NCBI GenBank assembly: GCA_964646515.1
Contig: CAZYES010000001.1
Span: forward strand, 7,582 to 71,581
DNA from: an uncultured Candidatus Saccharibacteria bacterium
GTDB lineage: Bacteria; Patescibacteriota; Minisyncoccia; Phycocordibacterales; PALSA-1337
Length of the DNA: 64,000 nucleotides
Direction of reading: 5' to 3'
In this document: piece after piece, positions 18,975-33,916 of the stretch
How positions within the stretch are numbered: the stretch's first letter is position 1
Layout: every line of letters starts with the position of its first letter
Translations under genes and position numbers: made by a program
Notes under the pieces: model-generated
The model's input: only the letters and a program-made list of their open reading frames with translations
The model's database searches: none
Told to the model about the DNA's origin: nothing

Positions 18975-20426
18975 ATGAAATTAGACAAATCTTTTTTTGG
19001 AAAGGAATTCAAGTATATTCTCATTCTTACTATTTTGGCCTGGATGGTTTATTCATTGCCACAAGTCAAGGAGTCTATGAGTAGACCGGTTGTTAGCGAT
19101 CCTGCCACAAGCAGTGTGGCGGCAGTAGGAGCGACTTCTGTGGCAACATGCCCCGGGGGATATATCTGTATACCTATTTCTCGGGCCAATAGTTATTGTC
19201 CAGCAGGATATACATGTACTCAAACGGCGACTACTTCACAGCCGTATATTAGTCTGAACGCTTCCTCGACCAATATCGGTCTAGGCCAATCTACAGTCGT
19301 ATTTTGGTCTACGAACAATGTGACCAATTGTGTCGGCACACAGGATGGCGGTGACGAGAAAGTGCCAGCCATATTCAGTGCTCCAGCCACAAGGGGCTCA
19401 TTTACTGTTACTCCATCACAAAGTGTCACTTATACATTGGCATGTTCTTTTGGGACAGTAGGTAAGATGTCAAAGAGTGTGACCATAAATGTGGGGCAAT
19501 ATCAATCATCTTGGCCAAGTTCTATTTCTGCGACTATAAATAGTGCGACTCCACTCAAGGGTCTTGTTCAAATATCAGAAACAGTGCCTACTTCCAATGT
19601 GTCATTGATGGTCTTCAATTTGAAATCGACGAACGGAACATCAACGCTTCGACAGATTAAGCTAAGTGTACAGATGAGCACATCTTCTCCCGATGCACGT
19701 TTATTTAACAACATGAAACTTAAGGCAGGTGGCAATATTTACTCGGCATTTTATATATATGAGCATAATAATATTGCAGATGTTGTATTCTCTGATATGT
19801 CAATAACATTGCCAAGCAATGCCACTGTCGCATTTATCTTAACTGCCGACATAGCTGCGGATTTACAGCGCAGGTTTGACGGTGTTGGTATTCGTGCGTA
19901 TCTTCAAGCAGATAAATCAAGTATATATGCCGAATATGGTGCTCGACAGTTACCAGTAAATATGGCGAATATTACAGGGAATACTCTTACACTTGTTAGT
20001 AATTCTCCTATCGTTAGTAATTTGTCGACCTTGTATGGCGTTCCCACTACTAACGGATATGGCTCTACTACCCAAAAATTTTCTTTCCGCTTTGCGATCA
20101 CGGCTAATGCAGATCCGATCTATTTGTCGAGATCATTGAATAGCGCTATTAGTACTTCAACTGTGCCCAATCCTAGTAATATATTTATTTCCCCTATCAG
20201 CTTTTCTGATACTGATGCGAGTGGCGATGGCCCAGGATATTTATATATTGCTCCTGGCCAAACGAAGACCTTCACTGCTATCTACTCAGGTTCTGGTCAG
20301 AGTTCAGCAGTTGGTACGTTCAACGTAAGTGCTATCAACTACGGAACGTCATCAGATGCTCTTACCTCGGCATCTATAACTTCGTCGCAGATCACCAACG
20401 GATTAAAAGCAGTCTTGTTTCATTAG
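18975..20426 (+). CDS. secreted/membrane-anchored hypothetical protein with CPxGYxC double motif (paralog of the 62234 ORF)
   Basis: N-terminal TM, CPGGYICIP...CPAGYTCTQ, and Ser/Thr-rich beta-rich repeats. VSLMVFNLKSTNGTSTLRQIKLS aligns with ELTMQAFDLKSTTGASKVTKICAS of the 62234 ORF. Confidence 0.6.
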   Translation: MKLDKSFFGKEFKYILILTILAWMVYSLPQVKESMSRPVVSDPATSSVAAVGATSVATCPGGYICIPISRANSYCPAGYTCTQTATTSQPYISLNASSTNIGLGQSTVVFWSTNNVTNCVGTQDGGDEKVPAIFSAPATRGSFTVTPSQSVTYTLACSFGTVGKMSKSVTINVGQYQSSWPSSISATINSATPLKGLVQISETVPTSNVSLMVFNLKSTNGTSTLRQIKLSVQMSTSSPDARLFNNMKLKAGGNIYSAFYIYEHNNIADVVFSDMSITLPSNATVAFILTADIAADLQRRFDGVGIRAYLQADKSSIYAEYGARQLPVNMANITGNTLTLVSNSPIVSNLSTLYGVPTTNGYGSTTQKFSFRFAITANADPIYLSRSLNSAISTSTVPNPSNIFISPISFSDTDASGDGPGYLYIAPGQTKTFTAIYSGSGQSSAVGTFNVSAINYGTSSDALTSASITSSQITNGLKAVLFH

Positions 20427-20458
20427 TTATTAATTATTAGTCACGGTAATAACGAACA

Positions 20459-20492
20459 AAATGCCTCTTTCAGGGGCATTTTGTCTATTTGA
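20459..20492 (+). terminator. rho-independent terminator
   Basis: AATGCCTCT-ttc-AGGGGCATT followed by a T-rich tract. Confidence 0.6.
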
Positions 20493-20718
20493 GGGAAAAT
20501 TTGCGACTTTTTTGACTCTGTGCTAGTCTAGTTGGTACGCGCTATCCTGCGTTTTCATATTGTTCTTCATCAGTCAATTAACTTGAAATGATGGAGGAAT
20601 GTGGAGGTAACTATTAATAATTTATCCCCTTTTTGGGCATGTATCGTTAGTGTTCATACGCACAAGCATTAACGATAATGTCCAAGGACTGGGGCAATAA
20701 AATAATAACAAAAATATT

Positions 20719-21906
20719 ATGGCAGCAGAATTCAATCGTTCCAAGCCACATGTCAATGTAGGCACAATTGGTCACATTGACCACGGCAAATCTACTTTGA
20801 CCGCCGCTATTTTGGCTGTTCAAGCCAAAAAGGGGTTGGCCAAGATGAAAGCTTACGCGGATATTACCAAAGGTGGTACTGTACGCGATGCTACAAAGAC
20901 CGTTACTATTTCTCTCTCACACGTCGAGTATGAGAGTCCAAATCGTCACTATGCGCATATCGATTGTCCAGGGCACGCTGATTTTATAAAAAACATGATT
21001 ACTGGTGCCGCTCAGATGGACGGTGCCATCCTCGTAGTTTCTGCTACTGACGGTGTTATGCCACAGACTCGCGAACATGTACTTTTGGCTTTTCAAGTCG
21101 GAGTACCAAAGATCATTGTATTTTTGAACAAGTGTGATCTCGTTCCAGAAACCGATCTTATCGATCTCGTAGAGGAAGAAGTGCGTGAACTTCTCACCAA
21201 AAATAAGTTCGATGGAAAGAATACCCCGGTTATTAGAGGCTCGGCTTCCAAGGCTCTCGAGGGTGATGCGACTTGGTCTACCAAGATAGACGAACTCATG
21301 AATGCTCTCGATACCTATATTCCTACCCCCGTACGTGAAGTTGATAAACCTTTCCTTATGCCGATCGAAGACATCTTTTCTATCGAAGGTCGTGGGACAG
21401 TTGTCACCGGTCGCATCGAACGTGGCAGTATCAAACTCAATGACGAAGTAGAGATTGTCGGGTTCAAAGATACTACCAAGACAGTTGTCACTGGCATAGA
21501 AATGTTCAACAAATCTCTAAAGGAAGGTATGGCAGGGGATAATGCTGGTCTACTTCTCCGTGGTACAGCCAAGGATGCTGTCTCTCGCGGGCAAGTTCTC
21601 TCAAAACCAGGTTCAGTAAAACCGCATAGCGAGTTTGAGTCTGAAGTTTATGTTTTGAAGAAAGAAGAGGGCGGACGCCATACGCCGTTCTTTACTGGCT
21701 ATAAACCGCAGTTTTATATTCGTACTACTGATGTAACTGGTGAGGTGACTCTTCCTGAGAAAGTAGAAATGGTCATGCCTGGGGATACAGTTACGTTCAA
21801 GGTGAAATTGGTTGCTCCAGTTGCCCTAGAAGCACAACAGCGTTTTGCCGTTCGTGAAGGAGGCAAGACAGTCGGTGCCGGTGTCGTGACTAAGGTTATT
21901 GCCTAG
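20719..21906 (+). CDS. tuf: elongation factor Tu
   Basis: [21 protein letters not shown], and full EF-Tu length. Confidence 0.95.
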
Positions 21907-21987
21907 TTGCATTTGTCATTATCGTTAGCTCTAAATTCATACAGGCTCGGAAGCAAAGTCATGTAACAAAAGCCAGTCTTTGCTTCC

Positions 21988-22401
21988 ATGATAATGATAA
22001 GAAAAAATATGTCGACAACAAAAACAACAATCAAAAAAGACACAACTTCAAAGGCCAAATCGCCACGTGTCCGCAAAGCCAAGGTATCGGGCGAAGTACC
22101 GCATCTTCGTATCCGCGTGCGTGCATATGAGCACAAGATTCTCGACGCATCGCTCAAGCAAATCATGGATACCGCCAATCGCTATGATGCGGAGATCCAT
22201 GGTCCGGTGCCACTGCCGACGGAGATCAAGAAGTATACTGTCAATCGTTCTTCGTTTATTGACAAAAATTCTCGCGAGCAATTTGAGATGAGAGTACATA
22301 AACGACTGATCGATATTATCAATCCAAATGCCAAAGTTATCGAAGCGCTTACCAACATGAGCTTGCCGTCGGGAGTGAATATCGATGTAAAGATGATGTA
22401 A
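21988..22401 (+). CDS. rpsJ: 30S ribosomal protein S10 with N-terminal Lys/Thr-rich extension
   Basis: The IRVRAYEHKILD...GPVPLPT core is uS10. About 35 extra N-terminal residues are lysine/threonine-rich; the start may be the internal Met. Confidence 0.85.
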   Translation: MIMIRKNMSTTKTTIKKDTTSKAKSPRVRKAKVSGEVPHLRIRVRAYEHKILDASLKQIMDTANRYDAEIHGPVPLPTEIKKYTVNRSSFIDKNSREQFEMRVHKRLIDIINPNAKVIEALTNMSLPSGVNIDVKMM

Positions 22402-22402
22402 T

Positions 22403-23032
22403 ATGAAATTCATTTTAGGTAGAAAGCTGAATATGACACAGATTTTTGATGCTTCTGGAAAAGCTATTCCGGCCACGGTTGTTTCTGCGCAGGGGAATGT
22501 GGTGACCCAGGTCAAATCAAAAGAGGTTGATGGTTATGAGGCTATTCAAGTAGGTGAGGGATCTATCAATCCGGGTCGTATTAACAAGGCTCAAAAGGGG
22601 CACATGAAAGAACTCGGTTCATTTTCTTCACTCTGCGAATTTCGTACGGATGGTTGTGAGACATCGACCGAGGCCAAACCACTTTTCAAAGTCGGTGACA
22701 AAATAGACGTCTCCCAATTCAAAGTTGGCGATACTGTTACAATTAGGGCCGTGTCCAAGGGCAAAGGGTTTCAAGGTGTTGTGAAGAGACACGGTTTTGG
22801 TGGTGGTCCCAGATCTCACGGTCAGAAACATTCCGAGCGCGAGCCGGGCTCTATTGGTGGCGGTCTTCGTACGCATGTGCCTGTAGGTATGCGCATGGCG
22901 GGTAGGATGGGTAGCGATCGTGTGACCGTTGCCAATCTCAAGATTGCGCATATAGACCAAGAAGAAAATGTCATATATGTTTCCGGTGCCATTCCTGGAA
23001 AAAGGGGAACGTTGGTAGAAATTATAGGATAA
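22403..23032 (+). CDS. rplC: 50S ribosomal protein L3
   Basis: uL3 family similarity (GRKLNMTQIFD..., FKVGD, GKGFQGVVKRHGF). Confidence 0.9.
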   Translation: MKFILGRKLNMTQIFDASGKAIPATVVSAQGNVVTQVKSKEVDGYEAIQVGEGSINPGRINKAQKGHMKELGSFSSLCEFRTDGCETSTEAKPLFKVGDKIDVSQFKVGDTVTIRAVSKGKGFQGVVKRHGFGGGPRSHGQKHSEREPGSIGGGLRTHVPVGMRMAGRMGSDRVTVANLKIAHIDQEENVIYVSGAIPGKRGTLVEIIG

Positions 23033-23040
23033 CAATAAAT

Positions 23041-24567
23041 ATGCGACGATTTAATGTTAAAAAGTTTATAAAAAACAAGTACTTTATTGGTGCGTTTGTT
23101 ATTGCTGTTATAGTTATTTGTTTTGTTTTTTGTAAGGGTGATTCTTCGTTGGGCTTCGAATTTGCAAAAGTGAAAACGGGTGATGTTGTCCAGAAAATTA
23201 GCGTTACTGGTAGAATTTTGGCTATGAATAACGCTGACTTGGCTTTTGGTAAATCCGGTATCGTTGCCATAGTTAACGTAAAAGTAGGTGATCATGTGAA
23301 AAAGGGAGAAGTTATTGCTTCATTGGATAGTTCTTCCGATAGGGCCAATCTAGCTTCTGCTCAAGCCAAACTTGATGATATGACGCGTAGTTTGAGGCCA
23401 GAGGAATCGCAAGTTGAGCAATCAAAAGTTGATCTTGCCAAAGTAGTACTTGATAATGCCAAGAGAGATGCTCTAGATGCTGTACGCGCAGGTTATGCTC
23501 AAGCGATGAATGCGGTTAATAATTATGTTGATAATTTTTTTACCAATCCTCAAAGCGTCAATCCCACGGTCAATATTTATACGCAATCTGATAATGAGAA
23601 AAATTCAGTTTCCTTAAAACGCATTGTAGTATCCGAATCTTTTGTTAAATGGAAAAAGGCTATTGATGTAACGACTAGTACAGATAACGTGTCCGATTTG
23701 GTCTCGCAGGCTAGTGGATATCTAGACCGTGTCAAGGATCTGATGGACACTATGTCTGTCGTGATCAGCAACTTAAATCCCGGCAATTCTGGCTTAGTCC
23801 AATCAGCGATCGATATGCATGTCTCCAATATGAATTCTGGTTTAATTGCCTTAAATCAAGCTATTACTTCTGTTTCTAGTGCTAGGGCGGAATTAGAGAG
23901 CGCTTCTTCTAGTTATGATCAAGCCAATGACAATTACACATTGAAGCTAGCGGGTAATTCTTCAGACTCCATCAAGGCTCAGTCTGCTTCATTAGATTCG
24001 TTCAGAGCAGAGTTAAATAAAGGCGTGATTTTTGCCCCCTTTGATGGGATTATTACGCGTGTTGAACCTACTATAGGTGAATTTGCCTCTTTGGGCCAGA
24101 CAGCGTTCAGTATCATTGAAGATAATGGTTACAAAATTGAAGCTTTTGTACCAGAGGCTGACATTGCCAAGATCAATTTGAACGATCTGGCCTCTACGAC
24201 TCTTGATGCTTACGGCCAGAATGTTGATTTTCCCTCGGTAGTTACCACGATTGATCCAGCAGAAACTATTCTTGAGGGAGTGCCTACATATAAAGTGACA
24301 TTGAGATTTATAGAAAGCGATTCTCGTCTTCGCCCGGGGATGACTGCTAATTTGGAGATTTTAACCGATGAACGTAGTAATGTGCTTATAGTTCCAGCGC
24401 GTGCGGTAGTCGATGACGATGGTTCCAAGACCGTACGTGTTTTGAACTCTGATGGTAAGACTTTCACCCCTGTTTCGGTGAGGGTTGGATTAAAGGGTTC
24501 AGACGGTGTGATTGAAATTATTTCTGGTGTCTCGGAGGGCGAAGAAGTAGTGACCTATATCAAATAA
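23041..24567 (+). CDS. HlyD-family periplasmic adaptor (MacA-like membrane fusion protein)
   Basis: N-terminal TM, biotin-lipoyl-like hairpin domain (VKVGDHVKKGEVIASLD), a long coiled-coil, and a C-terminal beta-barrel. Confidence 0.75.
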   Translation: MRRFNVKKFIKNKYFIGAFVIAVIVICFVFCKGDSSLGFEFAKVKTGDVVQKISVTGRILAMNNADLAFGKSGIVAIVNVKVGDHVKKGEVIASLDSSSDRANLASAQAKLDDMTRSLRPEESQVEQSKVDLAKVVLDNAKRDALDAVRAGYAQAMNAVNNYVDNFFTNPQSVNPTVNIYTQSDNEKNSVSLKRIVVSESFVKWKKAIDVTTSTDNVSDLVSQASGYLDRVKDLMDTMSVVISNLNPGNSGLVQSAIDMHVSNMNSGLIALNQAITSVSSARAELESASSSYDQANDNYTLKLAGNSSDSIKAQSASLDSFRAELNKGVIFAPFDGIITRVEPTIGEFASLGQTAFSIIEDNGYKIEAFVPEADIAKINLNDLASTTLDAYGQNVDFPSVVTTIDPAETILEGVPTYKVTLRFIESDSRLRPGMTANLEILTDERSNVLIVPARAVVDDDGSKTVRVLNSDGKTFTPVSVRVGLKGSDGVIEIISGVSEGEEVVTYIK

Positions 24568-24651
24568 ATGGTTTTGAAGACGTAATTACTCTGGGAAGGC
24601 CCCAATCGGGGGATATGGTATGGGTATTTCTGTCAAAATCCAATTAGCATT

Positions 24652-25368
24652 ATGAATATAATTGAAGTCACTAAATTAAAAAAATCATATCGCGATGGTT
24701 CCGATACTGTTGCCTTAGATGGCGTCACATTTTCCGTTAGAAAGGGTGAGTTTATGGCTATCATGGGACCATCTGGCAGTGGCAAGTCTACACTTTTGCA
24801 TATTCTTGGGCTTTTAGATTTACCAACTGGTGGGCAATATGTTTTTGATGGCAGGAATATTTCCACATATTCTGATTATGAACTAGCCAATTTGCGTAAT
24901 CGTAAGATTGGCTTTGTTTTTCAGATGTTCAATCTTTTACCACGTACATCCGTTTTGGCGAATGTAAAATTGCCTCTATACTATTCAGCTGTACCTGAAA
25001 GCGAGTGGGATGATAGGGCCAGAAAAGCGATAGAAGATGTGGGTCTTGGTCATCGTCTAGGCCATCAACCCTCTGAGCTTTCTGGTGGTGAAAGGCAACG
25101 TGTGGCAATAGCTAGGGCTTTGGTTACTAATCCGGAGATTATTTTTGCCGATGAGCCCACTGGCAATCTCGATTCCAAGTCAGGGAAGAAGGTTATGAGT
25201 ATCATTCAACATTTGAACGAAGAATATGGGAAAACCATTATTCTCATTACCCACGAGACTTCAACGGCTGAACATTCCGAACGGATTATTCGTCTATTAG
25301 ATGGTCAGATAGAGAGTGATGTCAAAGTGGCAAAGAGGCTGTCCGCTAGTGATGAGTTTGTGAAATGA
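24652..25368 (+). CDS. ABC transporter ATP-binding protein (MacB/LolD-type)
   Basis: Walker [13 protein letters not shown] signature [15 protein letters not shown], Walker B IIFADEPT. Confidence 0.9.
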
Positions 25369-25404
25369 TAAAATTACAACGTATAGTCTAATAATCAAGA
25401 AAAA

Positions 25405-26640
25405 ATGACTTGGCGACATCTGTTCAAAACTTCATTAAAGGGACTTACTACCAATAGATCCAGATCTTCTCTTACTATTCTTGGTATAGTTATTGGTATT
25501 ACGGCGATAATACTAGTGGTATCTTTGGGTGCTGGTGCCAAGGCGTTGATCTTGGGACAAGTACAGGGACTGGGCACGAATACGATTGCCATAATTCCTG
25601 GCAGGGAACCGACGGGGATGTCGGACATTTCTTCTTTATTCGGCGATTCATTGAAGGAAAAAGATTTGGTAGCACTTCGCAATAGGGCCAATGTTCCTGG
25701 ATTGAAGTCGATTATGCCAACGGTTATGGGGGCAGGTTCAGCCTCTTATGGTTCCAACACTTATCAAGTTTCAGTTTTCGGAGGCACCGAATTGTTGGCG
25801 GAGATCTTTGATTTGCACCCTAAGGGAGAATTTTTCACTACGGACGATGTTATCTCTAAGAATGACGTTGTAGTTTTGGGGTCAAAAATTAATGAAAAAC
25901 TTTTCAATTATGATAATGCCGTCGGACAGAAGTTAAAAATAAAGAACCGCAATTTCAAAGTCGTGGGTGTTCTGCCGGCCACTGGAGGTGGATCGCTTTT
26001 TAATTTTGATGATATGGTTCTGATGCCATATACTACCGCGCAAGATTATATTTTTGGGCAGAAATATTTCAGCAGGTTAATTATCCAAGCGATAGATGAC
26101 GCATCTGTGAAAGCTACGACTTATGATATTGAAGTAACACTTCGTGAATCTCACGGTATTACTGATCCTGACAAAGATGATTTCACAGTGCAGACTCAAC
26201 AAGATTTGGCAGATCGACTTTCAACTATTACTAATATCTTGACTTACTTTTTGGTAGCGGTGGCTTCAATCGCTCTTTTCGTGGGCGGTGTTGGTATCAT
26301 GAACATCATGCTTGTGGCTGTGACCGAGCGTACGCGCGAAATCGGTTTACGCAAAGCCTTGGGCGCAACAGATAAGGATATTTTAAAACAATTTCTTTTA
26401 GAGGCGGTTCTTTTGACAATCATTGGTGGCATTATAGGCATAGTTCTCGGTGCGTCCCTAGCATTTTTAACTGCTATAATATTATCTAAAGGTCTTAGTG
26501 TTAATTGGCAATTTATTTTTCCATGGGGCGGTGCGGCTCTCGGTTTTTGTGTCTCTGCAATAATTGGTCTTGTTTTTGGCGGTTATCCCGCTAAACAAGC
26601 TTCAAAGAAAAGCCCTATTGAAGCACTACGATATGAATAG
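25405..26640 (+). CDS. ABC transporter permease with periplasmic MacB_PCD and FtsX domain
   Basis: N-terminal TM, a large periplasmic domain, and a C-terminal FtsX-like 3-TM bundle. Confidence 0.8.
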   Translation: MTWRHLFKTSLKGLTTNRSRSSLTILGIVIGITAIILVVSLGAGAKALILGQVQGLGTNTIAIIPGREPTGMSDISSLFGDSLKEKDLVALRNRANVPGLKSIMPTVMGAGSASYGSNTYQVSVFGGTELLAEIFDLHPKGEFFTTDDVISKNDVVVLGSKINEKLFNYDNAVGQKLKIKNRNFKVVGVLPATGGGSLFNFDDMVLMPYTTAQDYIFGQKYFSRLIIQAIDDASVKATTYDIEVTLRESHGITDPDKDDFTVQTQQDLADRLSTITNILTYFLVAVASIALFVGGVGIMNIMLVAVTERTREIGLRKALGATDKDILKQFLLEAVLLTIIGGIIGIVLGASLAFLTAIILSKGLSVNWQFIFPWGGAALGFCVSAIIGLVFGGYPAKQASKKSPIEALRYE

Positions 26641-26833
26641 CAGTGTTTATTGGGATGTGTCTATTTATGGTAGTTTGATTTGAATAAGGGGCTAGAATCT
26701 CTCGAGAGATTTTGTTATTATTGATTAGCTGGGATGTATATAGGCATTTGACTTCGAGGGGTTGCTTTGTTAGCATACCCCATAAGCTCCGCGGAGCTTA
26801 TTTTCTTCATTTTCTCGTAAATTTTTTAATATA

Positions 26834-27184
26834 ATGCCACGATCACTAAAAAAAGGGCCATATCTTGATGAGAATCTTTTGAAGAAGATTTCTGGCAAAA
26901 AGCCTGCAACAACTGGTACCATCAAGACCTGGGCGCGTCGTTCACAAATATCGCCGGAAATGGTCGGCTTTACCTTTGGTGTACACAATGGCAAGACGCA
27001 TATAGATGTATTTATAACCGAGGACATGGTTGGGCACCGCCTCGGTGAATTTTCGCCAACTAGAAAGTTCTTGCGTCATGGAGGCAAGATGCAGAAGGAG
27101 ATCGAAATGAAGGCCAAAGAAGCTGAAATGGCCGCGGCCAAATCTGCAAAAGAAGCCGCAACTGCTGTAGCTACCAAAAAATAA
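26834..27184 (+). CDS. rpsS: 30S ribosomal protein S19 with C-terminal Ala/Lys-rich extension
   Basis: [10 protein letters not shown]...[13 protein letters not shown] uS19 core, plus a ~30-aa extension. Confidence 0.9.
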
Positions 27185-27193
27185 TTTACTTTT

Positions 27194-27607
27194 ATGATAA
27201 CCGCTTCACTCAAAAACTATAGGATCTCGCCCAGAAAGGTTCGTTTGGTTGCGGATATGATTCGTGGTAAAAATGTTGTGGAAGCCAAAGATATCCTTGG
27301 TCATGTTATCAAAAGAGCCAAGCACCCCATATCTAATCTTCTCGATTCTGCTGTTGCCAATGCTTCTCACAATCACAAGATAGACAAAGAGACTCTTTTT
27401 GTAAAGGAGATCCGTGTAGATCAAGGTTATGTTTTGAAACGTAGTCAACCAATGGCAAGAGGATCAGCTTTCCCAATCAAAAAGAGAACAAGCCACGTTG
27501 TTATTGTTTTGTCTCCGAAGTTGGATAATGCAAAGGTGGTGAAGTCATCCAAAGTCAAGAAATCGGTAGACAAGAAAGACAATAAAAAGACAACAGCTGT
27601 TAAATAA
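27194..27607 (+). CDS. rplV: 50S ribosomal protein L22 with Lys-rich C-terminal tail
   Basis: uL22 core (ISPRKVRLVADMIRGK). Confidence 0.85.
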   Translation: MITASLKNYRISPRKVRLVADMIRGKNVVEAKDILGHVIKRAKHPISNLLDSAVANASHNHKIDKETLFVKEIRVDQGYVLKRSQPMARGSAFPIKKRTSHVVIVLSPKLDNAKVVKSSKVKKSVDKKDNKKTTAVK

Positions 27608-27616
27608 TATATTCAC

Positions 27617-28291
27617 ATGTCCCACACCGTTCACCCATATTCACATAGGCTAGGAGTTATACGCGATTGGAAAAGTCGTTGGTTTAACACCGACCGAGAT
27701 TATCGCAAAGCTCTCAAGGGCGATTTGCTCATTCGTGAATTCTTACAAAAAGAACTTCGTTCCAATTATATTGGCGGGCTAGATATTGAGCGTAATCAAA
27801 AAACCTTAAAGGTAATTGTAAAGACTTCTCGACCGGGTATGCTTATTGGTAAAGCTGGTGATGGGGTGACCAAGCTCCGTGCCAAAATACTAAAACTTTT
27901 GAATAACAACAAGATCAAACTTGATGGGCAAGAGCTCAAAGTTGAGATCGAAGAAGTGCGTAGCCCAGAGTCAAATGCCATGATAGTGGGCATGATGGTT
28001 GCCGAATCATTGGAAAAACGTCTACCATTCCGACGCGTCATGAAACAGACGATAGAAAAAGTCATGGCCAACAAAGATGTCAAAGGGGTTCGTATCCGTC
28101 TGGGTGGCCGTCTCGGAGGTGCCGAGATCGCTCGTAGCGAAGAGTTGAAAAAAGGCCAAATTCCTTTGCAAACGTTACGCGCTGATATAGATTTTGCTCG
28201 TGAGAAAGCACATATGACCTATGGTGATATTGGCATAAAGGTTTGGATTTATAGGGGTGAGATTTTTAAAAAAGACGTAAAAAGTAATTAA
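27617..28291 (+). CDS. rpsC: 30S ribosomal protein S3
   Basis: KH domain and uS3 C-terminal domain (GGRLGGAEIAR). Confidence 0.9.
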   Translation: MSHTVHPYSHRLGVIRDWKSRWFNTDRDYRKALKGDLLIREFLQKELRSNYIGGLDIERNQKTLKVIVKTSRPGMLIGKAGDGVTKLRAKILKLLNNNKIKLDGQELKVEIEEVRSPESNAMIVGMMVAESLEKRLPFRRVMKQTIEKVMANKDVKGVRIRLGGRLGGAEIARSEELKKGQIPLQTLRADIDFAREKAHMTYGDIGIKVWIYRGEIFKKDVKSN

Positions 28292-28309
28292 TTCCATACT
28301 TCCAATACC

Positions 28310-28732
28310 ATGCTATTTCCAAAGAAAGTAAAACATCGCAAGTGGTTTACCATGCGTATGCATCCAGAAAAGGAAGCGTCACATTGCGATACCCGAGGCG
28401 TTGATTTGGCCTTTGGTTCTTTTGGTCTGAAAGCAATGAAGTATGGTCGTATTACTTCCAACCAAATTGAGGCCGCCAGGAAAGTCATGGCTCGTTATGC
28501 CACAAAATCTGGCAAGGTGTGGGTTAGGATTTTCCCAGATCATCCCTTTACGCAAAAGCCGGCAGAAGTAAAAATGGGCAAGGGCAAGGGTGATCCTGTT
28601 GGATTTATTGCCGAGGTCAAACCGGGGCGTATTGTTTTTGAGATTGATGGCGTTGAGCAAAAGATCGCTTCGGAGGCTCTCAGGAAGGCTGGCACAAAAT
28701 TACCTATCAAAACAAAAGTAGTCAGTCGATAA
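28310..28732 (+). CDS. rplP: 50S ribosomal protein L16
   Basis: uL16 family similarity ([11 protein letters not shown]..., KMGKGKG). Confidence 0.9.
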
Positions 28733-28759
28733 TAGGTATACAGAAATACTTTTATTAAC

Positions 28760-28957
28760 ATGAAAATGAAAGAAATTACAAATAAAACTACGACAGATTT
28801 GAGTAAGCTTATTTCCGAAAAACGTGAAGCTCTCAGGGTTTTTCGTTTTGGTGGGGCAGGAGCAAAGACCAAGAACGTGAAAGAGGGCCGCGCGATCAAA
28901 AAAGATATAGCAAGAATGATGACGGCGTTAACAGATAAAAAACATAGGGGCGAGTAA
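28760..28957 (+). CDS. rpmC: 50S ribosomal protein L29
   Basis: Size, position and a helical Lys-rich sequence typical of uL29. Confidence 0.7.
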
Positions 28958-29025
28958 TCTTTGTATATGATCCAAAATACGAATCCTCGACAAATTGTAG
29001 TAATTCAAGTAATATCACCAATCAC

Positions 29026-29283
29026 ATGATGCCAAACAAAACAACTGAAAAAAAGCTAAAGCGCCAGATGTTCGATGGCGTGGTTGTTTCTGACAAGATG
29101 AAAGATACCAGTGTGGTCGAGATTGAAAGATATGTAAGACATGCGAAGTATCATAAGTTTCAAATAAAAAGGACGAAATTGATGGCACATGACCCGGGCA
29201 ATACGAAAAAGATAGGTGATAAAGCAAAGATCGAGTCATGCAGACCGATTTCGAAGAGGAAAGCGTTCAGGGTTATTGGTTAG
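29026..29283 (+). CDS. rpsQ: 30S ribosomal protein S17
   Basis: GVVVSDKMKDT...HDP uS17 pattern. Confidence 0.85.
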   Translation: MMPNKTTEKKLKRQMFDGVVVSDKMKDTSVVEIERYVRHAKYHKFQIKRTKLMAHDPGNTKKIGDKAKIESCRPISKRKAFRVIG

Positions 29284-29304
29284 ATATTAAATTGCATTAC
29301 CAAA

Positions 29305-29676
29305 ATGATACAACCGCGTACAATAGTGAATATAGCAGACAATTCTGGAGCCAAAATAGGGCGTATTTTCAAAGTACTTGGTTCCTCTAAAAAACGCTAC
29401 GCAGGACTTGGCGAAGTGGTTGTACTTTCTGTACAAAAAGCTGAGCCACGAAAAACGATCAAAAAGAAAGATGTTTTGCATGCCGTAGTTGTGCGTCAGA
29501 CCAAGCCGGTTCGTAGAAAGGATGGTTCTTACATCCGCTTCGACGAAAATGCCGTAGTAATTATCGAAAAAGAGAAGAAAGAGCCTGTTGCGGGACGTAT
29601 TTTTGGGCCCATCCCTCGTGAAGTTGGTGAGGCGGGATTCAAGACCATTGCTTCCAAAGCGGCTGAGATTGTGTAA
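29305..29676 (+). CDS. rplN: 50S ribosomal protein L14
   Basis: MIQPRTIVNIADNSGAK uL14 N-terminus. Confidence 0.9.
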   Translation: MIQPRTIVNIADNSGAKIGRIFKVLGSSKKRYAGLGEVVVLSVQKAEPRKTIKKKDVLHAVVVRQTKPVRRKDGSYIRFDENAVVIIEKEKKEPVAGRIFGPIPREVGEAGFKTIASKAAEIV

Positions 29677-29710
29677 TTTTGATTTTTCAATTCAATTTAA
29701 TTTAACCACT

Positions 29711-29929
29711 ATGCATGTAAAAAAAGGAGATATTGTTCAAATATTATCAGGTGACAATAAAGGTAAGACGGGCAAGATCGTTAAGGTATTTCCGCGTGAA
29801 AATAAAATAGTCGTAGAAGGCGTGAATGTTATCAAAAAACATCAACGCGCAAGAAAAGAAGGCCAAAAAGGTCAGACGGTAGAGATAGCGATGCCTTTTG
29901 ATGCTTCAAAAGTCAAAATTAAAGTCTAA
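29711..29929 (+). CDS. rplX: 50S ribosomal protein L24
   Basis: MHVKKGDIVQILSGDNKGKTGKI KOW motif. The listed ORF 29588-29929 is an in-frame upstream extension. Confidence 0.85.
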   Translation: MHVKKGDIVQILSGDNKGKTGKIVKVFPRENKIVVEGVNVIKKHQRARKEGQKGQTVEIAMPFDASKVKIKV

Positions 29930-29934
29930 AAATC

Positions 29935-30489
29935 ATGTCATACAAAACAATTTACGAACTCAATAAGAACTCTTTTGAAACTTTGAAGACTCCTCTGGCT
30001 ATAGAGAATCCTATGCAGACGCCAAAGTTGGTGAAAGTGGTTGTTTCCAGTAGTTTTGGTTCGATCAAAGATAAAAAGAAGATCGAACTTATTGCCGATA
30101 GATTGGCGAAAATCACTGGGCAGAAACCTGCTGTTCGTGTAGCCAAGAAAGCTATTGCCACATTCAAGACTCGCACGGGCGATCCCATTGGTTATCAAGT
30201 AACTCTACGTGGCAAGCGGATGACAGAATTTTTAGATCGCCTGATTCATATCGCTCTGCCTCGTACCAAAGATTTTCGAGGACTTTCTAGAGATTCAGTC
30301 GATGCCATGGGTAATTTTACTATAGGTATAAAAGAGCATACGATTTTTGCAGAGACTGCTGACGAGGATCTAAAAGATGTTTTTGGCATGGCCGTTACTA
30401 TCGTTACTACCTCTAGCGACAAAAAATCTACTTTAGCGTTTCTCGAGTGTATAGGTTTGCCCCTAAAAAGGGTAGGAGCAAAGAGATAA
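29935..30489 (+). CDS. rplE: 50S ribosomal protein L5
   Basis: uL5 family similarity (NPMQTPKLVKVVVS..., LTLRGKRM). Confidence 0.9.
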   Translation: MSYKTIYELNKNSFETLKTPLAIENPMQTPKLVKVVVSSSFGSIKDKKKIELIADRLAKITGQKPAVRVAKKAIATFKTRTGDPIGYQVTLRGKRMTEFLDRLIHIALPRTKDFRGLSRDSVDAMGNFTIGIKEHTIFAETADEDLKDVFGMAVTIVTTSSDKKSTLAFLECIGLPLKRVGAKR

Positions 30490-30570
30490 TCGATAACCAT
30501 ATTGCTTTATAATACATGGGGCTCTTTTATTTCCCATGAATTGTGATAGTCTGATGAAACGATACTAACC

Positions 30571-31401
30571 ATGATTATTGATGGCCGTGTAACTAGAGAA
30601 GCTTTGTTTCCAGGACTTGAGCGAAGAGCCCAGGCGCTTTCTTTTAGACCGACATTGGCGATCGTCCAAGTGGGCAATAGACCTGACTCCACAGCTTTTA
30701 TTCGTGCCAAGAGGGCGTTTGCCAAGAGGGTTGGTGTCAACGAGAAACATATACAGGTGCCAGAAAATATTTCACAGAACGAACTTATTGATATTATAAA
30801 GAAATGTAATATTGATCTTTCTATTCATGGGATAATAATACAGTTACCTTTGCCTATACATATTGGAAGGGACACGGTAATCGATGCCATAGATCCGAAA
30901 AAAGATGCCGACGGTTTGACTGCTACCAATGTGAAACTTTGGTTAGAAGGCAGAGAAGATTGCATAATGCCCGCTACGGCTCGAGGTATCAAACATTTAC
31001 TGAATTATTACAAGATAGATCTATTTGGCAAGCACGTAACAGTTGTCGGTCGCTCGATGCTTGTAGGTAAGCCGATTGTCGCTATGTGCTTGAATGAAAA
31101 TGCCACAGTTACAGTTGGTCACAGCAAAACCAAACATCTTGCAGAGGAGACAAAAAATGCGGATGTTTTGGTTGTGGCTGTTGGAAAACCGGGTTTAATT
31201 GATGAAAAGTATGTAAAGAAGGGGCAAGTTGTTATTGATGTTGGCATTAGTCGCACCCAGGACAACAAACTTATTGGTGATGTTGATTTTAATTCAGTTT
31301 CAAAGAAAGTATCTGCCATTACTCCCGTACCAGGTGGCGTTGGTCCCATGACGGTATTTTCATTATTTGAGAATCTTATTGGTCTATGTGAGAAATGGTA
31401 G
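30571..31401 (+). CDS. folD: bifunctional methylenetetrahydrofolate dehydrogenase/cyclohydrolase
   Basis: MIIDGRV..., PTLAIVQVG, VTVVGRSMLVGKP, PVPGGVGPMT motifs. Confidence 0.9.
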   Translation: MIIDGRVTREALFPGLERRAQALSFRPTLAIVQVGNRPDSTAFIRAKRAFAKRVGVNEKHIQVPENISQNELIDIIKKCNIDLSIHGIIIQLPLPIHIGRDTVIDAIDPKKDADGLTATNVKLWLEGREDCIMPATARGIKHLLNYYKIDLFGKHVTVVGRSMLVGKPIVAMCLNENATVTVGHSKTKHLAEETKNADVLVVAVGKPGLIDEKYVKKGQVVIDVGISRTQDNKLIGDVDFNSVSKKVSAITPVPGGVGPMTVFSLFENLIGLCEKW

Positions 31402-31480
31402 AGGCCTATATTGGCTTATTTGCTCTATAATCAATAAGACGATACCATGTATTTATTATTAATAATTTATATTAAACAAT

Positions 31481-32266
31481 ATGAATAACATACCTGAAAA
31501 TTTTTGGAAGTTAGCTCGAGTCCTGACTGTTGTTTTGATGGTACTTCTGGCTGTAGTGGCGATAAAAGAATTCAAAGCTATTGGTTACGTTGGTGCCAAT
31601 CCAAATATGATGAATACGATTACGGTAGATGGCAGTGGAGATGTCGTGGCAATGCCTGATCTTGCAACCTTTTCATTTACGGTGACTGAAAATTCCAAGA
31701 CTGTAGCGGAGGCCCAAGCCAAGCAAGCAACCAAGGTTAACGCTGCTCTGAAAGCTGTACGGGATAGTGGTGTGGCTGATAAAGACATAAAAACACAGTC
31801 TTACAGTATAAATCCGCATTATGAATACCAAAATAGTGTTTGTACAGCCTATAGTTGTCCTCCTTCAAAGTCTATTTTGACTGGGTACGATGTGAGTCAA
31901 AGTATTCTAGTTAAGGTGCGCGATCTTGAAAAAGCCGGAGCGTTGTTTACTTCAATAGGTTCGCTCGGCGTAGACAATGTTGGCGGTCTTGATTTCTCTG
32001 TTGATGGTCCAGACACCATAAAAGCTCAAGCTCGTAGGGAGGCGATCAAGGACGCGCAAGCCAAAGCCGATGAATTGGCAGAGCAACTAGGCGTACGTTT
32101 GGTCCGTATTACCAGTTTCTACGAATCCGGCAACCCCACTCCGATAGTCTATGGTATGGGCGGAGCAAAAGATGAAGTAGTTAGAGTGCAAACAGCCACG
32201 CCGGAAGTACCAACAGGAGAGCAAAAAGTGACGAGTAATGTGACGATTACTTACGAAATAAAATAG
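31481..32266 (+). CDS. SIMPL/DUF541-family secreted protein
   Basis: N-terminal TM, and TITVDGSGDVVAMPDLATFSFTV...SYSINP, typical of the SIMPL fold. Confidence 0.6.
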   Translation: MNNIPENFWKLARVLTVVLMVLLAVVAIKEFKAIGYVGANPNMMNTITVDGSGDVVAMPDLATFSFTVTENSKTVAEAQAKQATKVNAALKAVRDSGVADKDIKTQSYSINPHYEYQNSVCTAYSCPPSKSILTGYDVSQSILVKVRDLEKAGALFTSIGSLGVDNVGGLDFSVDGPDTIKAQARREAIKDAQAKADELAEQLGVRLVRITSFYESGNPTPIVYGMGGAKDEVVRVQTATPEVPTGEQKVTSNVTITYEIK

Positions 32267-32379
32267 ATCTGGCTTTGAGATCACGGCCGATTTAATGTGA
32301 GCAGTAGTTGCCAATAAGGTGGTTGTTATTTTTGCGTAGACTGTGTATATTTTGGGGTAGAGCTTTGAAATTTTGAATT

Positions 32380-32913
32380 ATGAAAACTATATATGTCTAC
32401 TTTGGCAATGTTGCTACGCTTAGTCAGACACAAAGAGAGGTTCTTGATCAACTCCAACGTCACTTGGAATATAGTCTGAATAAAGGTTGTATCCCAGATA
32501 ATACGTACTGTGAGTTAGTAATGGCCAATTCAGTACTTGTTAGTGGCGGTGGTTCTAATGGTCAATATCAATCTTGGCAAACCAATCATATTGTTTGTGA
32601 CGGCCTGATTGTTGTGCCAGTGTGTCCGTGTGATATAAAGACGGTGATCGAAGCCGAGGTCGCTGTTTCTGGGATCACTCCTCCTGATGCCGTAGTCGAT
32701 GATTACGGTCGCTTCAAGAGGCCGATACCTGTAGTAGATTTCTGTTTTGGCAGAAAGGCCAATGCGATGATCGAAATCCATGCCAATAGGGATTTCCATT
32801 TACAGTGCAAGGCTAGTTCGTTTGAACTTGTACCTGAGGCAAATGTTGAAAAATTGGCAGAAGAAGTTGCCCAAAAGTATCGCAGGTTTGCTGACTTCTT
32901 CTGTGCTTGCTGA
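32380..32913 (+). CDS. hypothetical Cys-rich protein
   Basis: Compact ORF with a coding-like composition and a CDGLIVVPVCPCD motif. No family recognised. Confidence 0.4.
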   Translation: MKTIYVYFGNVATLSQTQREVLDQLQRHLEYSLNKGCIPDNTYCELVMANSVLVSGGGSNGQYQSWQTNHIVCDGLIVVPVCPCDIKTVIEAEVAVSGITPPDAVVDDYGRFKRPIPVVDFCFGRKANAMIEIHANRDFHLQCKASSFELVPEANVEKLAEEVAQKYRRFADFFCAC

Positions 32914-32933
32914 TATAGGCACCTGTCTCCTGA

Positions 32934-32962
32934 GCGCGTTTGTGATAACGCGCTTTTTGTTT
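32934..32962 (+). terminator. rho-independent terminator
   Basis: GCGCGTT-tgtgat-AACGCGC followed by TTTTTGTTTG. Confidence 0.75.
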
Positions 32963-33050
32963 GATACTCTGGATGTGGCTGTCTGGGTGGTGTCTGATTG
33001 GTTCCGGATACATTTTGTATTCATTAACAAATCTAACCCAACACATCTCC

Positions 33051-33079
33051 TTGACTTTGTAGTTAAGGGGGTGTATATT
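33051..33079 (+). promoter_or_regulatory. sigma70-type promoter for secE-nusG-rplK
   Basis: TTGACT (33051-33056), a 17-nt spacer, TATATT (33074-33079). A short CCCC-agca-GGGG hairpin plus T-run follows in the 5' UTR. Confidence 0.6.
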
Positions 33080-33128
33080 TCTCCACAAGTTATCCCCAGC
33101 AGGGGTTTTTTAATAAAATAGAAATATC

Positions 33129-33305: not shown

Positions 33306-33326
33306 TTAAAAATACAAGCTTACGTT

Positions 33327-33899: not shown

Positions 33900-33916
33900 T
33901 ATAATATCCACTTACT

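What the first reader, a model, noticed from the sequence alone, without database searches (positions are those of the whole stretch)
23041..26640. MacAB-like tripartite ABC efflux module occupies the rplD-rplW-rplB position inside the S10 ribosomal operon
The gene order here is tuf-rpsJ-rplC-[HlyD adaptor - ABC ATPase - FtsX/MacB permease]-rpsS-rplV-rpsC-rplP-rpmC-rpsQ-rplN-rplX-rplE. In nearly all bacteria rplC is followed by rplD-rplW-rplB, which encode the universal proteins L4, L23 and L2. Those three genes are absent from this window, and a three-gene export system sits exactly in their place. Two perfect palindromes plus T-runs lie between the permease gene and rpsS. This is either a lineage-specific rearrangement that puts an exporter under ribosomal-operon control, or an insertion that displaced L4/L23/L2 elsewhere.
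Basis: partly seen in the sequence, partly recalled or inferred. Interest (0 to 1): 0.6.

Follow-up and report, generated by a model that had tools for sequence, protein, structure and literature searches.

The report
Exporter genes inside split ribosomal operon
In this uncultivated Paceibacteria (CPR) bacterium a native three-gene MacAB-like exporter follows rplC, and the L4-L23-L2 genes have moved as their own unit to another locus, a real but modest lineage-specific operon rearrangement.

Summary
The order is tuf-rpsJ-rplC-[MacA-like adaptor, ABC ATPase, MacB/FtsX permease]-rpsS...rplE. No rplD, rplW or rplB lies in the window or in the rest of the 79-84 kb contig. The junctions recur in more than 20 independent assemblies, so this is not a misjoin.

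The exporter did not replace the three genes. Four related lineages (L189, L097/L098, L100/L101, L191) carry rplC-[exporter]-rplD-rplW-rplB-histidine kinase(minus strand)-rpsS. The window is the derived state, with the rplD-rplW-rplB-kinase block removed.

An orphan copy of exactly that block lies between transketolase and uvrB on contigs from the same sample series. Its composition matches the window (GC 41.2 vs 41.6%; tetranucleotide r 0.97).

The exporter is native: its GC and codon usage are typical, and its permease is 74-81% identical across the clade.

The two palindromes differ in role. The first may be a weak terminator. The second is a leader hairpin downstream of a phylogenetically conserved promoter for rpsS. 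The same promoter-hairpin cassette precedes rplD in relatives and in the orphan block. This clade's S10 operon is therefore already modular, which explains why the move was tolerated.

Interest is modest.

The parts
20501..20552 (+). Candidate tuf promoter (TTGCGA-17-TGCTAGTCT) followed by a short hairpin plus T-run (20537-20552). This is the probable start of the tuf-rpsJ-rplC-exporter transcript.
   Evidence: Sequence read. The hairpin is listed. The same promoter-hairpin layout lies upstream of tuf in many relatives. Inferred, not demonstrated.
20719..23032 (+). tuf (20719-21906), rpsJ (21994-22401) and rplC (22403-23032).
   Evidence: Pfam. Gene calls on the public contig.
23041..24567 (+). 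MacA/HlyD-type membrane-fusion adaptor, 508 aa. It has an N-terminal TM helix (residues 13-30) and an unusually long helical domain of about 230 aa (residues 98-326). It starts 8 nt after the rplC stop codon.
   Evidence: Pfam HlyD_3, HlyD_D23 and Biotin_lipoyl_2. TIGR01730 scores 166 bits against a cut-off of 94.9. PDB MacA 5nik_D, 7e-17. AF2 model with pLDDT 89. Best Foldseek hits are MacA in MacAB-TolC.
24652..25368 (+). ABC ATPase subunit of the MacB/LolD/FtsE type, with Walker A GPSGSGKS, signature LSGGERQR and Walker B IIFADEPT.
   Evidence: Pfam ABC_tran, 7e-34. NCBIfam best hits are LolD, the MacB NBD and DarD, all below their equivalog cut-offs. The motifs were read from the translation.
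25405..26640 (+). MacB-type permease: MacB_PCD extracytoplasmic domain plus FtsX 4-TM domain, without a fused ATPase.
   Evidence: Pfam, 2e-42 and 6e-22. PDB MacB 5gko 3e-54, 5nik_J 3e-54 and 5xu1_M 4e-38. 74-81% identical to more than 100 Paceibacteria proteins.
26696..26722 (+). Palindrome AATCTCTCGAGAGATT plus TTGTTATTATT. Candidate weak intrinsic terminator of the tuf...permease transcript.
   Evidence: unique in the window. RNAfold -7.5 kcal/mol. Not listed by the terminator scan because it is GC-poor. No relative shares this junction, so conservation could not be tested.
26748..26776 (+). rpsS promoter: -35 TTGACT, 17-nt spacer, extended -10 TGTTAGCAT.
   Evidence: TTGAC and TGnTAnnAT are invariant in the 5-species alignment A1, while the surrounding intergenic DNA has diverged. 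The motif occurs once in the 64 kb window.
26782..26815 (+). Leader hairpin ATAAGCTCCGCGGAGCTTAT plus T-rich tract, 5 nt after the -10 element and 33 nt before the rpsS ATG.
   Evidence: -9.8 kcal/mol. The stem AGCTC/GAGCT and the T-run are conserved upstream of rpsS in L097, L100, L109 and L014, and in L020, L027, L029, L031 and L032. In L014, L097 and L100 the upstream gene is divergent, so the hairpin cannot be that gene's terminator.
26834..30489 (+). rpsS-rplV-rpsC-rplP-rpmC-rpsQ-rplN-rplX-rplE, an independent transcription unit. folD follows rplE instead of rpsN/rpsH.

Best explanation
The window comes from an uncultivated Paceibacteria (Parcubacteria, CPR/Patescibacteria) genome. In this lineage the S10 ribosomal operon is no longer one operon. 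It is a chain of separately promoted units.

Step 1 (shown by comparison). In the ancestor of a subclade, a native three-gene MacAB-like exporter came to lie between rplC and rplD. The exporter consists of a membrane-anchored MacA-type adaptor, an ATPase and a MacB/FtsX permease. A histidine-kinase gene on the opposite strand already sat between rplB and rpsS.

Step 2 (shown for gene order; inferred for genome identity). In the lineage of this window the block [promoter cassette-rplD-rplW-rplB-kinase] left this site. It now lies between transketolase and uvrB on another contig. What remains is rplC-exporter-rpsS.

Why the move was tolerated (partly shown). rplD and rpsS each carry their own conserved promoter-plus-leader-hairpin cassette. 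Neither the departing block nor rpsS...rplE therefore depended on transcription from upstream.

How the block left (inferred, weak). Possibly by recombination between the two directly repeated cassettes. This would excise exactly this block and leave one cassette in front of rpsS.

Transcription in this organism (inferred). The exporter is most likely co-transcribed with tuf-rpsJ-rplC. The spacer is 8 nt, and the terminator and own promoter seen in relatives are both absent. The transcript probably ends near the first palindrome, and rpsS...rplE restarts from the promoter at 26748.

Mechanism of the exporter (inferred from family). It is a type VII, mechanotransmission ABC exporter. It expels a substrate from the outer face of the membrane through a channel formed by the long adaptor. 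The cell probably has no outer membrane. The substrate is unknown.
For: Identity of the genes.

Not a misjoin: (24 contigs from different JGI and Logan assemblies).

Ancestral arrangement rplC-exporter-rplD-rplW-rplB-kinase(-)-rpsS:
- L097/L098
- L100/L101
- L191, with 5 kb of extra cargo before rplD
- L189 is consistent: its contig starts just before the adaptor gene, so rplC is not seen, but exporter-rplD-rplW-rplB-kinase(-)-orf140-rpsS is present
These are the closest relatives found: L3 73-75% and tuf 93% for L097 and L100, permease 81% for L189, adaptor 59% for L191.

Kinase(-) between rplB and rpsS is also present in L014, which lacks the exporter.

Orphan block: L105-L108 read tkt-59 aa ORF-rplD-rplW-rplB-kinase(-)-uvrB. 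They come from the same sample series, and SRR12447079 holds both contigs. The block's prevalence is 34 index blocks, against 31-45 for window genes.

Composition of the orphan block: GC 41.2 vs 41.6%. Tetranucleotide r is 0.969, against 0.964-0.975 between window halves and 0.88-0.90 for the closest relatives. Its L4, L23 and L2 are closest to L097 and L100 (78/61/88%), as are the window's proteins.

Native composition of the exporter: GC 40.6-41.7%, and codon-usage r 0.81-0.84 against a median of 0.84.

Promoter cassettes.

Relatives have a terminator after rplC and their own extended -10 element before the adaptor gene. The window has neither.
Against: - There is no physical link between the window contig and the orphan L4-L23-L2 contig. 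The assignment rests on co-occurrence, composition and complementary gene content.
- No transcript data exist. Co-transcription with rplC, termination at 26696-26722 and initiation at 26748 are all inferred.
- The first palindrome is a weak hairpin (-7.5 kcal/mol, 2-3 G-C pairs).
- The L015/L109 lineage has the exporter after rplB, not before rplD. The exporter or the L4 block therefore moved more than once, and the polarity of events rests on parsimony without a formal tree.
- The remaining cassette shows no clear hybrid signature that would prove repeat-mediated excision.
Confidence: 0.78

Rival explanations
1. Assembly chimera: the contig wrongly joins rplC to an exporter locus and the exporter to rpsS.
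For: Ribosomal operons are conserved and shared among co-occurring relatives, which can cause misjoins in metagenome assemblies. This is general knowledge.
Against: Identical junctions occur in all 24 contigs read for the adaptor and for L3. They come from separate JGI assemblies and separate Logan single-run assemblies. Four related lineages show the same rplC-exporter adjacency. A complementary orphan L4-L23-L2 contig exists.
Confidence: 0.02
2. Recent horizontal insertion of a resistance or efflux island that deleted or displaced rplD-rplW-rplB in a single event.
For: macB-type genes have been reported among horizontally transferred and island genes in groundwater Patescibacteria (PMC12455944). 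One relative, L099, carries the module in a non-ribosomal context next to restriction-modification genes.
Against: GC and codon usage are indistinguishable from the genome. The permease is as conserved across the clade as the ribosomal proteins, and its identity tracks theirs. Relatives carry the exporter and rplD-rplW-rplB together. No integrase, transposase or flanking repeats lie at the junctions.
Confidence: 0.05
3. The organism really lacks L4/L23/L2 genes at any conventional locus (loss or extreme divergence), and the orphan contig belongs to another co-occurring Paceibacteria.
For: There is no physical linkage between the contigs. CPR lineages are known to lack some ribosomal proteins (general knowledge: L30 in all CPR, L9 and L1 in some).
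Against: L2, L4 and L23 are universal and essential. The orphan block lacks rplC upstream and rpsS downstream, exactly the complement of the window. Its composition matches the window as well as the window matches itself. It occurs in the same runs. Its proteins have the same nearest relatives.
Confidence: 0.08
4. Functional coupling: the exporter is kept next to rplC by selection, for example growth-rate-coupled expression of an essential envelope exporter. The rearrangement tightened that coupling by fusing it to the tuf-rpsJ-rplC transcript.
For: The exporter stays within the S10 region in 5 of 6 lineages examined despite repeated local rearrangement. The permease is 74-81% conserved, similar to ribosomal proteins. 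In the window the spacer has shrunk to 8 nt, with the terminator and promoter seen in relatives both lost.
Against: Relatives insulate the exporter with a terminator and its own promoter. L099 has it elsewhere. The neighbouring rplB|rpsS junction collects unrelated cargo in most Paceibacteria. Mere tolerance of insertions is therefore sufficient to explain the location.
Confidence: 0.2

Closest known systems
E. coli MacAB-TolC tripartite ABC efflux pump (PDB 5NIK, 5GKO, 9QGY)
   Same: The permease has the MacB_PCD plus FtsX 4-TM architecture (3e-54 to MacB). The adaptor has the lipoyl, beta-barrel, membrane-proximal and helical domains of MacA, which is the best sequence and fold match. The ATPase is of the MacB/LolD type.
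   Different: The ATPase is a separate polypeptide and is not fused to the permease. No TolC-like partner was seen on the annotated parts of the contig, and CPR cells are thought to lack an outer membrane (general knowledge). The adaptor's helical domain is about 230 aa, far longer than MacA's hairpin, and the adaptor is anchored by a TM helix. All NCBIfam MacA and MacB equivalog scores lie far below their cut-offs.
Gram-positive MacAB-like pumps: S. pneumoniae Spr0693-0694-0695 (PDB 5XU1; organism and gene names from memory) and B. subtilis YknXYZ (PDB 5F9Q, YknZ domain)
   Same: Three separate genes in the order adaptor-ATPase-permease, in a cell without an outer membrane. The permease matches 5xu1_M at 4e-38 and the YknZ domain at 8e-6. 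A faint YknX-type adaptor Pfam hit occurs in relatives.
   Different: Sequence similarity is lower than to proteobacterial MacB. The substrates known for those pumps (antimicrobial peptides, SDP toxin; from memory) cannot be transferred to this exporter. Neither of those pumps lies within a ribosomal operon.
Canonical bacterial S10 operon (rpsJ-rplC-rplD-rplW-rplB-rpsS-rplV-rpsC-rplP-rpmC-rpsQ) and the conserved str-S10-spc-alpha cluster (PMC6735719, PMC8046335)
   Same: The same genes occur in the same relative order on the same strand on both sides of the exporter. tuf lies directly upstream of rpsJ.
   Different: Those studies describe insertions between operons. Here the operon itself is cut at rplC|rplD and at rplB|rpsS, three genes are relocated, and each fragment has its own promoter cassette. 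All 27 non-CPR loci sampled and 52 CPR loci sampled keep rplC next to rplD.
L4-mediated attenuation in the E. coli S10 leader (general knowledge; PMC3616713 shows such leaders are narrowly distributed)
   Same: A hairpin plus U-tract lies in the 5' leader of ribosomal-protein transcription units, including the unit that encodes L4.
   Different: There is no sequence or Rfam similarity. The hairpin is only 5-8 bp and starts about 5 nt after the -10 element, leaving no room for an alternative structure. No evidence for protein binding exists, and it could simply be a 5' stabilising stem-loop.

Membership tests
MacB-type (type VII) ABC exporter with membrane-fusion adaptor | Permease with four TM helices (FtsX domain) and a large extracytoplasmic MacB_PCD domain between TM1 and TM2. 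| tested here: met
   Pfam MacB_PCD residues 21-239 (2e-42) and FtsX residues 285-404 (6e-22). Full-length alignment to the MacB transmembrane part in 5gko, 5nik and 5lil.
MacB-type (type VII) ABC exporter with membrane-fusion adaptor | Cognate ABC ATPase with Walker A, ABC signature and Walker B motifs, encoded adjacent to or fused with the permease. | tested here: met
   ABC_tran 7e-34. [16 protein letters not shown] and IIFADEPT are seen in the translation. The gene lies 36 nt upstream of the permease gene. It is a separate polypeptide, not fused.
MacB-type (type VII) ABC exporter with membrane-fusion adaptor | Adaptor with lipoyl, beta-barrel, membrane-proximal and alpha-helical domains. 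| tested here: met
   TIGR01730 above its cut-off. AF2 model with pLDDT 89 shows all four domains. Best fold hits are MacA chains, E 3e-20.
MacB-type (type VII) ABC exporter with membrane-fusion adaptor | Outer-membrane channel (TolC/OEP), which makes the pump tripartite. | tested here: not met
   No OEP/TolC Pfam family occurs among the called genes of the contig parts that were listed. The whole genome was not examined. Such a channel is not expected in a CPR cell (general knowledge).
MacB-type (type VII) ABC exporter with membrane-fusion adaptor | Orthology to MacA/MacB proper (macrolide or enterotoxin export). | tested here: not met
   NCBIfam equivalog scores are 83 against a cut-off of 342 (MacA) and 235 against 966 (MacB). 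The system belongs to the superfamily only, and its substrate is unknown.
Canonical S10 ribosomal-protein operon | Contiguous rpsJ-rplC-rplD-rplW-rplB-rpsS-rplV-rpsC-rplP-rpmC-rpsQ. | tested here: not met
   rplD, rplW and rplB are absent from the window and from the contig. 3.6 kb of exporter genes lie between rplC and rpsS.
Canonical S10 ribosomal-protein operon | A single transcription unit driven from upstream of rpsJ. | tested here: inconclusive
   A conserved promoter-like cassette directly upstream of rpsS argues for at least two units. No transcript data are available.

The most novel reading that the evidence does not exclude
There are two linked readings. First, the short promoter-hairpin-U-tract cassette that precedes both rplD and rpsS (and, in variant form, tuf and rpsH) in these Paceibacteria could be a previously undescribed ribosomal-protein autoregulatory attenuator. 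It would coordinate the separated fragments of the S10 operon, and it would be what permits universal ribosomal genes to disperse in CPR genomes. Second, the MacAB-like exporter could be retained next to rplC, and in this organism fused to its transcript, because it is an essential, growth-rate-coupled envelope exporter of CPR cells.
Probability: 0.12. Interest if true: 0.6.

Novelty: new variant of a known kind. Interest (0 to 1): 0.36.

Why it matters
The S10 operon is among the most stable gene arrangements in bacteria. Its 16-protein neighbourhood is also the standard marker set for placing and binning uncultivated lineages.

This case shows that one CPR class has an operon cut into independently promoted modules. 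Cargo is routinely inserted at rplB|rpsS, and in one subclade at rplC|rplD. In at least one species L4-L23-L2 have left altogether.

There are two practical consequences. Marker-gene pipelines that assume synteny can score such genomes as incomplete or chimeric. Contigs carrying only L4-L23-L2 can be binned wrongly.

Biologically it offers a natural series of intermediates, with a gap between the exporter and rplD of 82 nt, 0.55 kb, 1.5 kb, 5 kb and finally a different locus. This series can be used to study how an essential operon is dismantled.

The exporter itself is an ordinary family member with an unknown substrate.

Tried and rejected
- Looked for L2/L4/L23 in the window by tblastn and in both unseen contig ends. 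Found none. The look-up with the first window ORF failed because its start differs from the public gene call.
- First candidate for the organism's L2 was P0221, chosen for similar source and contig counts. It proved to be a different organism with a conventional operon.
- The metagenome scan with the permease was swamped by one conserved peptide pattern. It yielded only one close relative, L109; the remainder were 35-63% homologs without ribosomal context.
- blastn-short between the window junction and the flanks of the block in L105, L097 and L100 found no homology beyond the rpsS start. A blastn of L189 against window 20000-31000 aligned only coding regions. The exact breakpoints therefore cannot be mapped.
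- Rfam found nothing between 15 and 35 kb.
- My first promoter pattern had the wrong spacing and gave zero hits. It was corrected.
- Four literature searches found no description of this arrangement. A MacB mention in a Parcubacteria paper turned out to be the author name 'Macbeth'.
- The hypothesis of a mobile-element footprint at the window junction was rejected. The first palindrome is unique. The dRS3-like repeat seen after ftsX in L097 and L191 is absent from the window and from L105.


Full report
WHAT IS THERE

The window is part of a 79-84 kb metagenomic contig. It was assembled repeatedly from one sample series (JGI 3300076256/266/298/584/591/594 and Logan SRR12447077-105). L3-based relatives in GTDB genomes are all Patescibacteria of the Parcubacteria/Paceibacteria group. 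The best is only 70% identical, so the species is not among the GTDB representatives.

ORF listing and Pfam confirm this gene order:
- rpsL-rpsG-fusA-[483-aa protein with no Pfam family]-tuf-rpsJ-rplC
- adaptor (23041-24567), ABC ATPase (24652-25368), MacB_PCD+FtsX permease (25405-26640)
- rpsS-rplV-rpsC-rplP-rpmC-rpsQ-rplN-rplX-rplE
- folD-SIMPL-hypothetical-secE-nusG-rplK

L2, L4 and L23 queries find nothing in the window. The same queries detect these genes in every one of about 80 comparison loci. The 7.6 kb upstream and the roughly 12-15 kb downstream of the window also lack them. The two perfect palindromes are at 26696-26711 and 26782-26801.

NOT AN ARTEFACT AND NOT FOREIGN DNA

All 24 contigs read for the exact adaptor protein show the same junctions, and so do all 24 read for the exact L3 protein. 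They come from different assemblies.

GC of the three exporter genes is 40.6-41.7%, against a window mean of 41.6%. Their codon usage correlates with the rest of the window at 0.81-0.84, where the median gene scores 0.84.

The permease has more than 100 homologs at 74-81% identity in Paceibacteria. This is as conserved as the ribosomal proteins of the same relatives: L3 73-75%, S3 79-80% and L16 86-87% for L097 and L100. The exporter is therefore an old, vertically inherited resident.

WHAT THE RELATIVES SHOW

(a) All 52 CPR and 27 non-CPR species loci retrieved with L3 keep rplD directly after rplC. The gap is 75-107 nt at the median and 394 nt at most.

(b) The closest relatives found through the permease and the adaptor have the exporter between rplC and rplD:
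- L097/L098 (L3 75%, tuf 93%, permease 80%): rplC-adaptor-2 small ORFs-ATPase-permease-2 small ORFs-rplD-rplW-rplB-histidine kinase(minus)-rpsS...
- L100/L101: the same with different small ORFs
- L189 (permease 81%, the closest): adaptor-ATPase-permease, then 82 nt, then rplD-rplW-rplB-kinase(minus)-orf140-rpsS.... The contig begins just before the adaptor gene, so rplC is not seen.
- L191 (adaptor 59%, the closest): rplC-exporter-purD-EamA-DKNYY-NYN-rplD-rplW-rplB

(c) L014 lacks the exporter but has rplB-kinase(minus)-rpsS. The kinase insertion is therefore older than the exporter insertion.

(d) L015 has rplC-rplD-rplW-rplB-exporter. The high-GC contig L109 has exporter-[424-aa ORF, minus]-rpsS. 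It shares with L015 a 338-aa ORF inserted between the adaptor and the ATPase. That lineage therefore probably carries the exporter at the rplB|rpsS junction.

(e) L099 has the exporter in a non-ribosomal context.

The simplest reading is that rplC-exporter-rplD-rplW-rplB-kinase(-)-rpsS is ancestral for the window's nearest relatives. The window is then the derived state, with rplD-rplW-rplB-kinase removed. I did not compute a formal tree.

WHERE L4-L23-L2 WENT

I searched with the L2 of L097 and inspected cluster members. This turned up P0307, an L2 with the same source profile as the window's proteins (NCBI, JGI and Logan; 18 contigs).

Its contigs L105-L108 come from the same sample series (JGI 3300076261; SRR12447079, 81 and 97). 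SRR12447079 also holds a window-type contig.

The gene order there is rpiB-rpe-tkt-tkt-59 aa ORF-rplD-rplW-rplB-kinase(minus)-uvrB-response regulator-uvrA-uvrC-ddl. This is an orphan copy of exactly the block missing from the window, including the antisense kinase.

Composition supports the assignment:
- GC is 41.2% against 41.6% for the window.
- Tetranucleotide correlation with the window is 0.969.
- The window's own halves correlate at 0.964-0.975.
- The nearest relatives correlate at 0.88-0.90.

Its L4, L23 and L2 are 78%, 61% and 88% identical to those of L097, the same nearest relative as for the window's proteins. There is no physical linkage. I put the assignment at roughly 0.8.

THE INTERGENIC REGION AND THE PALINDROMES

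A sigma-70-type promoter with an extended -10 element (TTGACT-17 nt-TGTTAGCAT) lies at 26748-26776, between the two palindromes.

I aligned the region upstream of rpsS from five species: the window, L097, L100, L109 and L014. TTGAC, TGnTAnnAT, a hairpin with stem AGCTC/GAGCT and the following T-run are conserved, while the rest of the spacer has diverged. In L014, L097 and L100 the upstream gene is the divergently oriented kinase. The hairpin therefore cannot be a terminator for an upstream gene. It is a 5' leader element of the rpsS unit.

The strict motif TTGAC-N14-16-TGnTAnnAT occurs as follows:
- once in the 64 kb window, before rpsS
- once in L105, before rplD
- exactly twice each in L189, L097 and L100, before rplD and before rpsS

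Across 49 loci an rpsS-proximal promoter motif is present in 21. All but one of these have an rplB-rpsS distance of at least 450 nt. It is absent from 12 of the 13 loci with a distance under 200 nt. No Rfam family matches.

The first palindrome (26696-26711, -7.5 kcal/mol, then TTGTTATTATT) lies 55 nt after the permease stop codon. It is the only candidate terminator for the upstream transcript. This is an inference, because no relative shares that junction.

HOW THE EXPORTER IS PROBABLY EXPRESSED

In L097 and L100 a strong hairpin plus T-run follows rplC (-26 and -14 kcal/mol). An extended -10 element, TGCTATAAT, lies 8 nt before the adaptor ATG. L191 has TGTTATAAT 7 nt before it. These relatives thus insulate the exporter and may produce a leaderless transcript.

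In the window, rplC and the adaptor gene are 8 nt apart, with neither a terminator nor such a -10 element. A promoter-hairpin cassette of the same style lies upstream of tuf at about 20501-20552.

My inference is one transcript covering tuf-rpsJ-rplC-adaptor-ATPase-permease in this organism. This is not shown.

WHY THE REARRANGEMENT WAS POSSIBLE

In 40 CPR loci the rplB-to-rpsS distance has a median of 830 nt, and 23 of 40 exceed 700 nt. In 24 non-CPR loci the median is 34 nt and the maximum 143 nt.

The inserted genes are heterogeneous: a kinase, pyrF/pyrD, aldehyde dehydrogenase, and large Big_7/PKD/CARDB surface proteins. The fusA|tuf and rplE|rpsH junctions also carry cargo.

The ribosomal super-cluster in this class is therefore a string of autonomous units. 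Insertions between them, and relocation of a whole unit, need not disturb expression.

The rplD and rpsS cassettes are direct repeats that flank exactly the block that moved. Recombination between them would excise the block and leave one cassette in front of rpsS, which is what is seen. The homology is short, about 9-nt runs, and the surviving cassette is not demonstrably a hybrid. This remains a hypothesis.

WHAT THE EXPORTER IS

- Permease: MacB_PCD+FtsX. It matches MacB structures at 3e-54 and 5xu1_M at 4e-38.
- ATPase: MacB/LolD/FtsE type with intact motifs.
- Adaptor: passes TIGR01730. An AlphaFold2 model built from 40 homologs (pLDDT 89) shows an N-terminal TM helix, lipoyl, beta-barrel and membrane-proximal domains, and a helical domain of about 230 aa. 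The best fold matches are MacA chains in MacAB-TolC.

The system fails the equivalog thresholds for MacA, MacB, LolCDE, FtsEX and DarBCD. No TolC-like gene was seen on the annotated contig parts. It works like a MacB-type mechanotransmission exporter of the split, Gram-positive style. It is a superfamily member with an unknown substrate.

VERDICT

- The novelty lies in the operon architecture, not in the genes.
- I found no published description.
- Interest is modest: a clear, well-documented exception to S10 operon conservation, with practical relevance for marker-gene-based binning of CPR genomes. A promoter-leader cassette deserves follow-up.

Noticed in passing
window 26748-26815; L105 8663-8745; L189 3531-3592 and 7081-7148; L097 12663-12724 and 15779-15847; L100 11728-11789 and 14695-14762: A conserved cassette precedes both rplD and rpsS in this clade: TTGACTTC-N10-CTCTGTTAnnAT, then about 8 nt, then a 5-8 bp hairpin (A/G)(C/A)GCTC...GAGC(C/T) and a T-run. 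Variants precede tuf, rplC and rpsH in many other Paceibacteria. It has no Rfam match. It could be an attenuator or a 5' stabilising stem-loop.
   Followed up: partly
L014-L069 (genome-contig loci), rplB-rpsS junction: In CPR relatives the rplB|rpsS junction is a general insertion site. The median distance is 830 nt, and 23 of 40 loci exceed 700 nt, with a maximum of 7.4 kb. The cargo is unrelated from one locus to the next (histidine kinase, pyrF/pyrD, aldehyde dehydrogenase, Big_7/PKD/CARDB surface proteins). In 24 non-CPR loci the maximum distance is 143 nt.
   Followed up: partly
window 18975-20426: A 483-aa protein with no Pfam family and an N-terminal hydrophobic segment is inserted between fusA and tuf. 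It has the least typical codon usage in the window (r 0.51). Relatives carry other cargo at this junction: a RelB/YafQ toxin-antitoxin pair in L097, a 1014-aa PG_binding protein on the minus strand in L191, and a 1394-aa ORF in L100.
   Followed up: no
window 30489-34339, and about 7 kb beyond the window end (L010 16704-17614): rplE is followed by folD-SIMPL-hypothetical-secE-nusG-rplK rather than by rpsN/rpsH...secY. No rplA follows rplK. rplJ-rplL lie far away on the opposite strand. The whole ribosomal super-cluster of this genome is fragmented.
   Followed up: no
L097 11268-11287 and 11352-11371; L191 13492-13511: A palindromic repeat GTCATTCCCGCGAAGGCGGGAATC (pattern ATTCCC-N8-GGGAAT, like Neisseria dRS3 repeats; the resemblance is from memory) sits directly after the permease gene in two relatives. 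This is the junction where the L4-L23-L2 block was lost in the window's lineage. It is absent from the window and from L105.
   Followed up: partly
L097 6169-6274; L100 6948-7035 and 7552-7638; L191 9979-10000: Relatives have a strong terminator after rplC. They also have an extended -10 element (TGCTATAAT or TGTTATAAT) only 7-8 nt upstream of the adaptor ATG, which suggests a leaderless exporter mRNA. The window has lost both features.
   Followed up: partly
window 21948-21986: A 10-bp hairpin GGAAGCAAAG-N19-CTTTGCTTCC (-16.9 kcal/mol) abuts the rpsJ start codon region in the tuf-rpsJ spacer. It may be a translational or processing element.
   Followed up: no
L105 9428-9913; L097 13430-13894; L189 4271-4738: L23 in this clade is 154-161 aa, about 60 aa longer than typical bacterial L23. 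S10 in the window is also extended at its N terminus (135 aa).
   Followed up: no
L015 8156-9335 and 13294-14815: This GTDB representative MAG has tuf and the adaptor gene each split across two reading frames. These are probably long-read sequencing frameshifts rather than pseudogenes.
   Followed up: no
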